Assembly (NCBI RefSeq): GCF_009914755.1 | Contig: NC_060925.1 | Reading direction: 5' to 3' (one strand) | DNA from: the human T2T-CHM13v2.0 reference genome, Homo sapiens | DNA length: 64,000 nt | In this document: one piece after another, positions 38,887 through 64,000 of the stretch | How the letters are laid out: every line of letters starts with the position of its first letter | Position numbering within the stretch: the stretch's first letter is position 1 | Translations under genes and position numbers: made by a program | The notes under the pieces: model-generated | Databases searched by the model: none | The model's input: only the letters and a program-made list of their open reading frames with translations | What the model was told of the DNA's origin: nothing

Positions 38887-62845
<23,959 letters not shown>

Positions 62846-63025
62846 CCCTGGGCCGTGGTTCCTACGCCCGAGGCTCCCTTCCCTTCCCCAGCCGCACTCA
62901 TGCCCTGCTCCTGTCTTGTGCTTTATCCTGCCCCGCTCCCCATCGCCTGCCCGCAGCAGCGACGAAACGTCCATCTGAGGAGCCTGGGCCTTGCCGGGAG
63001 GGGTACTCACCCCACCTAAGGCCAT

Positions 63026-63035
63026 CTAGTGCCAA
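63026..63035 (+). promoter_or_regulatory. CELSR2: miR-96 target site CTAGTGCCAA in CELSR2 3' UTR
   Basis: Complementary to nt 2-11 of miR-96-5p (UUUGGCACUAG...); CELSR2 recalled as a reported miR-96 target. Confidence 0.65.
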
Positions 63036-63729
63036 CTCCCCCCCCACCATTCCCCTCACTGCACTTTGGACCCCTGGGGCCAACATCTCCAAGACAAAGT
63101 TTTTCAGAAAAGAGGAAAAAAAGAATTTAAAAAAGGATCTCCACTCTTCATGACTTCAGGGATTCATTTTTTTTATACGCTGGAAATTGACTCCCCTTTC
63201 CCTTCCCAAAGAGGATAGGACCTCCCAGGATGCTTCCCAGCCTCTCCTCAGTTTCCCATCTGCTGTGCCTCTGGGAGGAGAGGGACTCCTGGGGGGCCTG
63301 CCCCTCATACGCCATCACCAAAAGGAAAGGACAAAGCCACACGCAGCCAGGGCTTCACACCCTTCAGGCTGCACCCGGGCAGGCCTCAGAACGGTGAGGG
63401 GCCAGGGCAAAGGGTGTGTCTCGTCCTGCCCGCACTGCCTCTCCCAGGAACTGGAAAAGCCCTGTCCGGTGAGGGGGCAGAAGGACTCAGCGCCCCTGGA
63501 CCCCCAAATGCTGCATGAACACATTTTCAGGGGAGCCTGTGCCCCCAGGCGGGGGTCGGGCAGCCCCAGCCCCTCTCCTTTTCCTGGACTCTGGCCGTGC
63601 GCGGCAGCCCAGGTGTTTGCTCAGTTGCTGACCCAAAAGTGCTTCATTTTTCGTGCCCGCCCCGCGCCCCGGGCAGGCCAGTCATGTGTTAAGTTGCGCT
63701 TCTTTGCTGTGATGTGGGTGGGGGAGGAA

Positions 63730-63775
63730 GAGTAAACACAGTGCTGGCTCGGCTGCCCTGAGGGTGCTCAATCAA
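63730..63775 (+). promoter_or_regulatory. Hepatic enhancer core at the rs12740374 site (SORT1/CELSR2/PSRC1 eQTL), G allele
   Basis: ctgagg[G]tgctcaat at 63764; a T here would create the C/EBP site TTGCTCAAT. Adjacent forkhead motif GTAAACA at 63732-63738. Confidence 0.85.
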
Positions 63776-64000
63776 GCACAGGTTTCAAGTCTGGGTTCTG
63801 GTGTCCACTCACCCACCCCACCCCCCAAAATCAGACAAATGCTACTTTGTCTAACCTGCTGTGGCCTCTGAGACATGTTCTATTTTTAACCCCTTCTTGG
63901 AATTGGCTCTCTTCTTCAAAGGACCAGGTCCTGTTCCTCTTTCTCCCCGACTCCACCCCAGCTCCCTGTGAAGAGAGAGTTAATATATTTGTTTTATTTA

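What the first reader, a model, noticed from the sequence alone, without database searches (positions are those of the whole stretch)
62905..62978. Hidden alternative last exon in the CELSR2 3' UTR encoding a PDZ-binding C-terminus (...SGSDSDETSI*)
Seen in sequence: 139 nt downstream of the exon-34 acceptor is a second pyrimidine-rich stretch ending ccgCAG|CAG (AGs at 62955-62956 and 62958-62959). Joining the phase-2 exon-33 donor (GGC TCC GA|) to 62957 gives GA|C AGC GAC GAA ACG TCC ATC TGA = D-S-D-E-T-S-I-stop. The second AG gives D-D-E-T-S-I-stop, also in frame. Established: E-T-S-I-COOH fits the class I PDZ ligand consensus (S/T-x-hydrophobic), and I recall a CELSR1 isoform ending ...NETSI. 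Inference: this may be the ancestral Celsr1/2 terminus, and acceptor choice may toggle PDZ-scaffold coupling relative to the reference ...EFLFFNFLH tail. It may already exist as a predicted isoform.
Basis: partly seen in the sequence, partly recalled or inferred. Interest (0 to 1): 0.8.

Follow-up and report, generated by a model that had tools for sequence, protein, structure and literature searches.

The report
Unannotated PDZ-motif tail of CELSR2
A second splice acceptor inside the annotated 3' UTR of human CELSR2 gives the receptor a different, very ancient C-terminal end (…DETSI) that looks like a docking motif for scaffold and recycling proteins and that the human reference annotation leaves out.

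Summary
A tandem CAG|CAG acceptor (AGs at 62955-56 and 62958-59) joins in frame to the phase-2 exon-33 donor (62466). It gives …SGSDSDETSI* or …SGSDDETSI* in place of the reference …[12 protein letters not shown].

The sequence alone is not beyond chance: the acceptor is weak and in-frame class I tails are common. Orthologues settle it. Of 146 CELSR2 database representatives, 32 end in ETS[I/V], from sharks to birds and four mammals. Chimpanzee "isoform 6" equals the human 62960 join and mole equals the 62957 join. Another 52 end in FLFFNFxx, and several species carry both tails.

Human CELSR1 has the same donor and a …EGSNETSI* acceptor; its ETSI codons differ from CELSR2 only at synonymous sites.

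Mouse fat and islet transcript models splice intron 33 only at a junction whose length fits the distal acceptor. A published human catalogue reports an unannotated 34-exon CELSR2 transcript that dominates outside the brain; that it is this isoform is my inference.

PDZ binding is untested. The motif fits the SNX27 type, which recycles fly Flamingo. Mouse has DEPSI, which breaks the motif.

Verdict: a real, conserved alternative C-terminus, already present as predicted isoforms but missing from human RefSeq and from the literature I searched.

The parts
62232..62466 (+). CELSR2 exon 33, ending in a phase-2 donor (…TCC GA|gtgagt). It is the common upstream exon for all three C-terminal outcomes.
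   Evidence: Its translation is P0001. The homologous exons of human CELSR1 and CELSR3 end in the same GA|GT phase-2 donor.
62818..62845 (+). Proximal (reference) acceptor and coding end: (E)FLFFNFLH, then TAA.
   Evidence: It is the strongest acceptor in the region (leave-one-out 15.24 bits). The 37 nt at -40..-4 upstream of it are CU-rich (pyrimidine 0.86, T 0.46), and the 100 nt upstream hold 5 PTB-like motif starts. 52 of 146 orthologue representatives end in FLFFNFxx.
62846..62956 (+). Stretch that is 3' UTR in the reference transcript but becomes the end of a longer intron (62467-62956, 490 nt) when the distal acceptor is used. Its last ~40 nt hold the pyrimidine tract and candidate branch points (ctcAt, tttAt) of the distal acceptor.
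   Evidence: pyrimidine 0.76 at -40..-4. The branch points were read by eye against the yUnAy consensus and are inference.
62954..62959 (+). Tandem (NAGNAG) acceptor CAG|CAG, with splice points before 62957 and before 62960.
   Evidence: Both outcomes are annotated in orthologues. DSDETSI-type: Talpa, Sarcophilus, Mus. DDETS[IV]-type: Pan, Smutsia. Sander lucioperca isoforms X2 and X3 differ by the same single Ser.
62957..62978 (+). Alternative coding end. (GA)C AGC GAC GAA ACG TCC ATC TGA gives D-S-D-E-T-S-I-stop. From 62960 it gives D-D-E-T-S-I-stop. [quoted passage not shown]
   Evidence: 32 of 146 orthologue representatives have an identical or near-identical tail. The human CELSR1 paralogue has GAA ACT TCA ATT TGA, three differences that are all synonymous.
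62979..64000 (+). 3' UTR shared by both isoforms. It runs on to 64548, outside the window.
   Evidence: Annotation supplied with the finding. The last exon would be 1592 nt from the distal acceptor, against 1618 nt in the mouse transcript models.

Best explanation
Positions 62957 and 62960 are a genuine, ancient alternative 3' splice site (a tandem CAG|CAG) inside the annotated last exon of CELSR2.

When the exon-33 donor pairs with it rather than with the strong proximal acceptor at 62818, the intron is 490 or 493 nt. The reading frame then runs for 7 or 6 codons to TGA. The receptor ends in …DSDETSI or …DDETSI instead of …EFLFFNFLH. The stop stays in the last exon, so no nonsense-mediated decay is expected.

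Shown here:
- the frame and the two splice points;
- orthology with annotated CELSR2 ends in most jawed-vertebrate groups;
- a paralogous tail in human CELSR1.

Inferred, most likely:
- The ETSI form is the default form outside the brain, and the RefSeq FLFFNFLH form is brain-enriched. The choice may be set by repression of the CU-rich proximal acceptor in non-neural cells (PTB-type). This last step is speculative.
[quoted passage not shown] The FLFFNFLH and intron-retained (…GSE) ends lack this coupling.
- The two splice points put Ser (phosphorylatable) or Asp (constitutively acidic) at position -5, a position that tunes SNX27 affinity.
For: Sequence: (frame, AGs, stop).

Orthologues:
- searched with exon 33 among proteins of 136-2000 aa. 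Of 29 hits, 2 end in S[DN]ETSI, 1 in FLFFNFLH, 25 in …GSE and 1 otherwise.
- One search gave 318 hits, of which 120 were listed. One search gave 128 hits, 120 listed, 27 of them new.
- The union is 146 CELSR2 representatives: 32 ETS[IV], 19 other short class-I-like tails (18 teleost NTSM-type, plus sturgeon NETAI), 52 FLFFNFxx, 20 GSE/GSES and 23 other.
- ETS[IV] by group: cartilaginous fish 4 of 6, non-teleost ray-finned fish 2 of 3, lobe-finned fish 1 of 2, amphibians 3 of 4, reptiles 5 of 20, birds 12 of 28, mammals 4 of 33.
- Both tails occur in one species in Pan, Sarcophilus, Balearica, Haliaeetus albicilla, Mus musculus and Sander.

Paralogue: the human CELSR1 acceptor gives EGSNETSI*, and its ETSI-stop codons differ from CELSR2 at 3 positions, all synonymous.

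Transcripts:
- Mouse fat and islet models come from Knierim 2019, supplement file 4 parts 5-6. 30 of 49 Adgrc2 models reach the 3' end. 17 splice intron 33 at one junction with a 494-nt intron, 13 retain it, and none has a ~351-nt intron.
- 494 nt matches human 490/493 (ratio 1.01/1.00) and not 351 (ratio 1.41). The ratio for the other 32 introns ranges 0.48-1.35, median 0.95.
- In human, the NAR 2024 text and supplement sheet ADGRC2 list a new 34-exon transcript, NSTRG.3707.1. It makes up 77-100% of CELSR2 TPM in most non-brain tissues and 96.2% in cerebellum. NM_001408.3 makes up 72.6% in brain and ~0-7% in most other tissues. The text says the new dominant variants differ in amino-acid sequence and names CELSR2 as an example.

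Function by analogy:
- The fly stan-PA isoform carries a PDZ-binding motif that binds Snx27. Deleting its last 3 residues lowers junctional Flamingo (passages).
- SNX27 prefers class I motifs with acidic or phosphorylated residues at -3 and -5, and the ETSL end of OTULIN binds it (passages).
Against: - No human junction reads were available. The identification of NSTRG.3707.1 with this acceptor is an inference, because the held supplement gives no exon coordinates.
- The mouse junction was matched by intron length only, not by sequence.
- The distal acceptor is weak by the local matrix: 6 of 43 true sites score lower.
- Mus musculus isoform X2 ends DSDEPSI, with Pro at -2 and so no class I motif. 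Perognathus ends DSDPAAT. In at least some rodents the motif is therefore not kept, which argues against an indispensable PDZ function in mammals.
- Only 4 of 33 mammalian representatives carry ETS[IV]. Clustering at 90% identity hides isoforms that differ only at the tail, so this number is not a frequency.
- Many database entries are automatic gene models that can copy one another by homology.
- No PDZ binding of any CELSR2 tail was found in print.
- The PTB idea rests on motif counts alone.
Confidence: 0.75

Rival explanations
1. The acceptor is real and conserved, but in humans (and perhaps mammals generally) it is a minor or relic isoform. The ETSI end no longer has a PDZ-dependent role, and the FLFFNFLH form does the work.
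For: Mouse isoform X2 ends DSDEPSI and Perognathus ends DSDPAAT. Only 4 of 33 mammalian representatives end in ETS[IV]. The acceptor score is weak. Human RefSeq lists one transcript. A 2025 review table lists no PDZ-binding motif for the ADGRC subfamily.
Against: The human, chimpanzee, mole, pangolin and marsupial sequences keep E-T-S-[IV]-stop intact. Mouse fat and islet models use only the long-intron junction. The human catalogue shows an unannotated 34-exon form dominating non-neural tissues. Clustering at 90% identity hides tail-only isoforms, so the 4 of 33 is not a usage frequency.
Confidence: 0.15
2. The conserved stretch is kept for a non-coding reason, such as a 3' UTR regulatory element. 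On this view the ETSI protein models are annotation artefacts passed from species to species by homology-based gene prediction.
For: Most hits are automatic predictions ('isoform X', 'PREDICTED', 'LOW QUALITY'). No proteomic evidence was seen.
Against: The three differences between the CELSR1 and CELSR2 ETSI-stop codons are all synonymous. The stop codon directly follows the motif in both paralogues. Teleosts keep a different tail (NTSM) that is still class-I-like. The one-codon tandem-acceptor variant recurs in fish and mammals. The de novo mouse transcript assemblies, reported in the paper's section on de novo transcript assembly, show the long-intron junction.
Confidence: 0.05
3. It is a chance in-frame AG and a chance motif with no biological use.
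For: 4.0% of AGs in the window give a class-I-like tail in phase 2, and 5.8% of decoy AGs score as well as this acceptor.
Against: The seven-residue tail DSDETSI is identical in sawfish (Pristis), gar, lungfish, mole, Tasmanian devil and the human 62957 join, and the SDETSI core also recurs in birds, reptiles and amphibians. A paralogous tail exists in CELSR1.
Confidence: 0.03

Closest known systems
Predicted or annotated CELSR2 isoforms of other species (Pan troglodytes 'isoform 6', Talpa occidentalis, Sarcophilus 'isoform 4-T5', Mus musculus isoform X2, and many birds, reptiles, amphibians and fishes)
   Same: The exon-33 end is the same and the tail is the same. Pan equals the human 62960 join. 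Talpa and Sarcophilus equal the human 62957 join.
   Different: The human RefSeq annotation supplied with the finding has no such transcript. The chimpanzee model also starts at an internal Met and lacks exons 10 and 15. The mouse tail is DSDEPSI.
Human CELSR1 alternative end …EGSNETSI
   Same: It has the same phase-2 GA|GT donor after the homologous exon, and E-T-S-I-stop is encoded right after an acceptor downstream. Database proteins P0180 and P0192 end …GSNETSI.
   Different: In CELSR1 the ETSI acceptor lies upstream of the other acceptor (…EKP*, 60 nt further on). A 27-bp tandem duplication repeats the NETSI-stop unit. No [12 protein letters not shown] tail was found within 6 kb. CELSR3 has the same donor but no ETSI-like tail within 4 kb.
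[quoted passage not shown] 2019, PMC6370945; passages read)
   Same: [quoted passage not shown] That motif binds the Snx27 PDZ domain and sustains junctional receptor levels.
   Different: The fly motif sequence was not seen in the passages read, so homology of the motif itself is untested. No vertebrate CELSR2 experiment exists in the papers searched.
Latrophilin-3 (ADGRL3) C-terminal transcript variants with or without a PDZ-binding motif (PMC10592476; passages read)
   Same: It is an adhesion GPCR whose alternative 3' splicing decides whether the tail ends in a PDZ-binding motif that engages scaffold proteins (SHANK).
   Different: It belongs to a different subfamily, and the alternative tails there are large rather than a 6-9-residue swap.
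SNX27-type class I PDZ-binding motifs, for example OTULIN …ETSL (Chandra et al. 2021, PMC8083963; passages read)
   Same: X-[S/T]-X-Φ at the C-terminus with Glu at -3. At -5 there is Asp in the 62960 form and a phosphorylatable Ser in the 62957 form.
   Different: Binding of the CELSR2 tail to SNX27 has not been measured. The resemblance is by motif only.

Membership tests
Functional alternative 3' splice site in a terminal exon | AG dinucleotide preceded by a pyrimidine tract and a plausible branch point | tested here: met
   cccgCAG|CAG, with pyrimidine 0.76 at -40..-4. The matrix score of 5.61 bits lies within, but low in, the range of the 43 real acceptors (6 of 43 lower). Branch points were read by eye only.
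Functional alternative 3' splice site in a terminal exon | Spliced transcripts that use the junction | tested here: inconclusive
   Human junction reads are not available with these tools. 17 of 30 3'-complete mouse models use a junction whose 494-nt intron fits the distal site and not the proximal one, but this match is by length, not by sequence. A human unannotated 34-exon dominant transcript exists, but its exon coordinates were not held.
Functional alternative 3' splice site in a terminal exon | Reading frame kept and conserved as coding in orthologues | tested here: met
   32 of 146 CELSR2 representatives end in ETS[IV] and 19 more end in other short class-I-like tails. The differences from the CELSR1 tail are synonymous only.
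NAGNAG tandem acceptor | Two AGs three nucleotides apart, both in frame, differing by one codon | tested here: met
   CAGCAG at 62954-62959. The products differ by one Ser.
NAGNAG tandem acceptor | Both sites used | tested here: inconclusive
   Both products are annotated across species: Pan and Smutsia against Talpa, Sarcophilus and Mus, and Sander X2 against X3. No evidence that both are used in human.
Class I PDZ-binding motif (X-[S/T]-X-Φ-COOH) | Motif sits at the extreme C-terminus, directly before the stop codon | tested here: met
   E-T-S-I followed by TGA at 62976-62978.
Class I PDZ-binding motif (X-[S/T]-X-Φ-COOH) | Ser/Thr at -2 and a hydrophobic residue at 0 | tested here: met
   Thr at -2 and Ile at 0 in human. 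This is not met in the Mus musculus X2 tail, which has Pro at -2.
Class I PDZ-binding motif (X-[S/T]-X-Φ-COOH) | Measured binding to a PDZ domain | not testable with these tools
SNX27-retromer cargo motif | Acidic or phosphorylatable residues at -3 and -5 (Chandra 2021, passages) | tested here: met
   Glu at -3. At -5 there is Asp in the 62960 form and Ser in the 62957 form.
SNX27-retromer cargo motif | SNX27-dependent recycling or direct binding | not testable with these tools
   Shown only for fly Flamingo, and reported by proteomics for CELSR1 as cited in Strutt 2019. The cited proteomics paper was not held.

The most novel reading that the evidence does not exclude
The CELSR2 protein used as reference, which ends in FLFFNFLH, may be a brain-enriched special form. 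The default form in nearly all other tissues, and the one shared with CELSR1, would then end in an ancestral PDZ-binding motif that hands the receptor to SNX27-retromer for recycling to cell junctions. The one-codon tandem acceptor would set whether position -5 is a constitutive acid (Asp) or a phospho-switch (Ser). Neurons would uncouple CELSR2 from this route by switching to the proximal acceptor.
Probability: 0.3. Interest if true: 0.7.

Novelty: new member of a known kind. Interest (0 to 1): 0.5.

Why it matters
CELSR2 is a core planar-polarity receptor. It sits at the 1p13 cholesterol locus and is studied in ciliogenesis, axon growth and regeneration.

If the default non-neural protein ends in a PDZ-binding motif that the reference sequence lacks, two things follow. 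Constructs built on the reference end would miss a sorting or scaffolding signal, and a tag placed on the C-terminus could mask it. Variants in the '3' UTR' at 62957-62978 would be coding changes, and those at 62954-62959 would alter a splice site.

It would also give vertebrate CELSR1 and CELSR2 the same retromer-linked recycling handle that was shown for fly Flamingo. A recent review table lists no PDZ-binding motif for this subfamily.

The practical step is small: add the transcript to the human annotation and test one peptide.

Tried and rejected
- Searching the human genome with single CELSR2 exons 29, 31 and 33 found no paralogues. A 481-residue bird fragment did find them.
- The 1.84-billion-protein representative library returned mostly short unnamed fragments: 54 hits, of which I printed the tails of 8. 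It added only the two …GSNETSI tails, two more …SDETSI tails and one …SEKP tail.
- I looked for exon coordinates of the human transcript NSTRG.3707.1 in the held supplement and found none.
- The SNX27 interactome paper cited by Strutt 2019 (PMC4052425) is not held.
- Full-text searches for CELSR together with ETSI found nothing relevant. One search gave 0 papers. One search gave 50 papers by substring, of which I opened two, and there the match was an author's name.
- Searches for CELSR2 with PTBP1 and with SNX27 gave no direct link. Reviews list Celsr2 and Snx27 side by side among hydrocephalus genes, but I saw only titles and abstracts in the listing.
- There is no Rfam match in 62000-64000 and no other notable open frame on either strand.
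- I did not run a complex prediction.
- I considered that the tail might be a chance motif or a non-coding conserved element, and rejected both on the orthologue and paralogue evidence.

Full report
**1. The observation**

The window sequence shows exon 33 of CELSR2 ending …GGC TCC GA|gtgagt at 62466. The reference acceptor is …ctctccag|ATT TCT… at 62818. A second site, …ctgcccgCAG|CAG CGA CGA AAC GTC CAT CTG A, lies 139 nt further on.

Using the annotated coding exons, the reference reading ends …[16 protein letters not shown]. Joining 62466 to 62957 gives …DEDSSGSDSDETSI*, joining to 62960 gives …DEDSSGSDDETSI*, and reading into the intron gives …SGSE*.

**2. Is it more than chance?**

On the sequence alone, no. 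A weight matrix from the 43 annotated acceptors of SARS1 and CELSR2 in this window gives 62957 a score of 5.61 bits. That is lower than all but 6 of the 43 real sites in leave-one-out, and 273 of 4727 other AGs (5.8%) reach it. Site 62960 scores 4.39 and the reference acceptor 15.24.

Joined in the same phase, 4.0% of all AGs in the window give a tail ending [ST]x[VILMF], and 0.47% give [DE][ST]x[VIL]. In 62467-64000, 3 of 92 AGs give the strict motif, and all three share this one stop codon. The case therefore rests on comparison with other sequences.

**3. Orthologues**

Exon 33 (77 residues, P0001) was searched against the 5.8-billion-protein collection among proteins of 136-2000 residues. 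It returned 29 hits. 25 end at …GSE (the intron read through), two bird models end …SGSESNETSI and …SGSESDETSI, one owl model ends …[12 protein letters not shown], and one lizard model has another end.

Two searches for full-length proteins followed. One used the tail region of a monitor-lizard CELSR2 (318 hits, 120 listed). The other used the tail of a chimpanzee CELSR2 (128 hits at E ≤ 1e-20, 120 listed, 27 new). Together they give 146 CELSR2 cluster representatives and one CELSR1, which I set aside. Their ends are as follows.

| End | Count of 146 |
|---|---|
| E-T-S-[I/V] | 32 |
| Other short class-I-like tails (18 teleost …NTSM/NTSI type, plus sturgeon …NETAI) | 19 |
| FLFFNFxx | 52 |
| …GSE or …GSES | 20 |
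| Other or evident mis-models | 23 |

The ETS[IV] end is found in these groups.

| Group | ETS[IV] |
|---|---|
| Cartilaginous fishes | 4 of 6 |
| Non-teleost ray-finned fishes | 2 of 3 |
| Lobe-finned fishes | 1 of 2 |
| Amphibians | 3 of 4 |
| Reptiles | 5 of 20 |
| Birds | 12 of 28 |
| Mammals | 4 of 33 |

The mammals are as follows.
- Talpa occidentalis and Sarcophilus harrisii end …SGSDSDETSI, identical to the human 62957 join.
- Pan troglodytes 'CELSR2 isoform 6' ends …SGSDDETSI, identical to the human 62960 join.
- Smutsia gigantea ends …SGSDDETSV.

Both tails are annotated in one and the same species in Pan, Sarcophilus, Balearica, Haliaeetus albicilla, Mus musculus and Sander lucioperca. 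The pike-perch even has the one-codon pair …SDSNCNTSM / …SDNCNTSM, which is the same tandem-acceptor choice.

Because the collection is clustered at 90% identity, isoforms that differ only in the last residues are hidden behind one representative. These counts show presence, not frequency. Many entries are automatic gene models.

Results against a universal role: Mus musculus isoform X2 ends …SGSDSDEPSI, with Pro where the motif needs Ser/Thr, and Perognathus isoform X2 ends …SGSDSDPAAT.

**4. Paralogues in the same genome**

A bird CELSR2 fragment located CELSR1 on contig 22 and CELSR3 on contig 3 of the window's own genome. I fetched 20 kb and 10 kb around their 3' ends.

In CELSR1 the exon homologous to exon 33 ends …RTGSAQADGSDSE with the same phase-2 donor GA|GTGAGT. 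748 nt downstream lies …cccacgcgcag|A GGC AGT AAT GAA ACT TCA ATT TGA, giving E-G-S-N-E-T-S-I-stop. A 27-bp unit holding NETSI-stop is tandemly duplicated. 60 nt after the first acceptor, another acceptor gives E-K-P-stop.

Two proteins of the representative library whose tails resemble human CELSR1 end …GSNETSI, and one ends …SEKP (I printed the tails of 8 of the 54 hits).

The codons for E-T-S-I-stop in CELSR1 and CELSR2 differ at three positions, all synonymous.

CELSR3 has the same GA|GTAAGT donor. No ETSI-like tail follows within 4 kb: 8 of 337 AG joins end class-I-like, and none resembles it.

The ETSI end is therefore shared by CELSR1 and CELSR2. The FLFFNFLH end was found only in CELSR2, and no such tail turned up within 6 kb of the CELSR1 donor.

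**5. Transcripts**

I could not reach human junction data. Two published catalogues bear on the question.

Knierim et al. 2019 (PMC6667449; passages, and supplement file 4 parts 5 and 6) list 49 mouse Adgrc2 transcript models from fat and islets. 30 of them reach the 3' end. 17 splice intron 33 at one and the same junction (last exon ending at mm10 chr3:108392516, intron 494 nt), 13 retain the intron, and none has an intron near 351 nt.

Human intron 33 is 351 nt with the reference acceptor and 490 or 493 nt with the distal one. For the other 32 introns the mouse/human length ratio has median 0.95 and range 0.48-1.35. So 494/351 = 1.41 falls outside that range, while 494/490 = 1.01 fits. This is a match by length, not by sequence.

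Kuhn et al. 2024 (PMC11039983; passages, and supplement file 1 parts 19 and 20) state that some newly found human transcripts are dominant and differ in amino-acid sequence, and they name CELSR2. Their table lists a new 34-exon transcript, NSTRG.3707.1, with the same 3' end as NM_001408.3.
- NSTRG.3707.1 makes up 77-100% of CELSR2 TPM in most non-brain tissues and 96.2% in cerebellum.
- NM_001408.3 makes up 72.6% in brain, 94.5% and 82.4% in two further brain sets, 46.1% in fetal brain, 3.8% in cerebellum, and about 0-7% in most other tissues.

The held supplement has no exon coordinates. That this transcript is the ETSI isoform is therefore my inference. It has the same exon number, a changed protein and the tissue pattern seen in mouse.

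**6. How it most likely works**

Shown: the distal tandem acceptor keeps the frame and ends the protein in a conserved E-T-S-I. The stop stays in the last exon.

Inferred: acceptor choice is tissue-dependent, with the distal site used outside the brain and the proximal site in brain. The 37 nt at -40..-4 upstream of the proximal acceptor are unusually CU-rich (pyrimidine 0.86, T 0.46), and the 100 nt upstream hold five PTB-like motif starts. The distal site has 0.76, 0.27 and one. This would suit repression by PTB-type proteins in non-neural cells, but it is speculation, and a search for CELSR2 with PTBP1 gave nothing direct.

[quoted passage not shown] In the fly, the stan-PA isoform of Flamingo carries such a motif. 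The motif binds the PDZ domain of Snx27, and removing its last three residues lowers junctional Flamingo. The same paper cites proteomics linking CELSR1 to SNX27 (Strutt et al. 2019, PMC6370945, passages).

SNX27 favours class I motifs with acidic residues, or phosphorylated Ser/Thr, at -3 and -5, and the …ETSL end of OTULIN binds it (Chandra et al. 2021, PMC8083963, passages). The human tail has Glu at -3. At -5 it has Asp if 62960 is used and Ser if 62957 is used, so the tandem acceptor could set a constitutive or a phosphorylation-dependent ligand. None of this has been measured for CELSR2.

**7. What is known**

Full-text searches found no paper that names a PDZ-binding end or an ETSI tail for any CELSR. 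The searches were CELSR2 + PDZ-binding + isoform, Celsr + ETSI, CELSR2 + splicing terms, CELSR2 + SNX27 and ADGRC2 + PBM/PDZ.

The 2026 consortium review says that nearly half of the adhesion GPCRs have such a motif, and in the passages I read it mentions C1 only through Dishevelled (the first 300,000 characters are held). A 2025 review table lists only proline-rich sequences, and no PDZ-binding motif, for the ADGRC subfamily. Subscription journals and supplements that are not held may say more.

As database entries the isoform is not new: predicted or annotated proteins with this end exist for many species, including chimpanzee and mouse. It is missing from the human RefSeq annotation supplied with the finding, which lists one transcript.

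**8. Verdict**

This is a real and ancient alternative C-terminus of CELSR2, shared with CELSR1. It is very probably expressed in human tissues and plausibly serves as a PDZ/SNX27 handle. It belongs to a known kind, adhesion GPCR tails that gain or lose a PDZ-binding motif by 3' splicing, as in Flamingo and latrophilin-3.

Interest is moderate. It corrects the reference view of the protein's end and offers a direct test of how vertebrate CELSRs are sorted. The isoform is already in sequence databases, the function is untested, and the mouse motif is broken.

Noticed in passing
L002 (G000 contig 22, about 46847919-46847979, minus strand): Human CELSR1 has a 27-bp tandem duplication that repeats the unit encoding N-E-T-S-I-stop together with its CAG acceptor. 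The acceptor that gives the …SEKP end lies at the end of the second copy. Several closely spaced acceptors could therefore give EGSNETSI, DNETSI (twice) or EKP.
   Followed up: partly
window 62467-62470, and mouse models: Retaining intron 33 ends the protein at …SGSE*, because TGA directly follows the donor. 13 of 30 3'-complete mouse fat and islet models retain this intron, and 20 of 146 database representatives end in …GSE or …GSES. A third, tail-less C-terminus may be a regular product.
   Followed up: partly
P0202 (Mus musculus isoform X2), P0099 (Perognathus isoform X2): The rodent versions of the alternative tail are DSDEPSI and DSDPAAT, so the class I motif is broken. Mole, pangolin, chimpanzee, human and Tasmanian devil keep it. 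This may be a lineage-specific loss in rodents, and it matters for mouse models.
   Followed up: no
P0110, P0123, P0128-P0149, P0221, P0222 (teleost CELSR2): Teleosts replace …DETSI by …(H/N)CNTSM or NTSI. These tails are still Thr-x-hydrophobic, and they show the same one-Ser tandem-acceptor variation (…SDSHCNTSM against …SDHCNTSM).
   Followed up: no
window 62740-62817: The proximal acceptor is preceded by a long CU-rich tract of about 75 nt with several CTGCC repeats close to the AG. This composition is seen at splice sites repressed by PTB and, from my recollection, at sites activated by neural SR-related factors.
   Followed up: partly
window 63760-63779 (RefSeq regulatory feature; single position 63764): The annotated cis-regulatory site in the CELSR2 3' UTR lies about 800 nt downstream of the alternative stop, in the same last exon. 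From memory this is the 1p13 cholesterol-locus variant site that acts on SORT1. It is not connected to the acceptor as far as I can see.
   Followed up: no
P0083 mapped on the window: The chimpanzee 'isoform 6' that carries the DDETSI end also starts at an internal Met within exon 1 and lacks exons 10 (52888-53175) and 15 (54915-55016). As a whole it is not simply the reference protein with another tail.
   Followed up: partly
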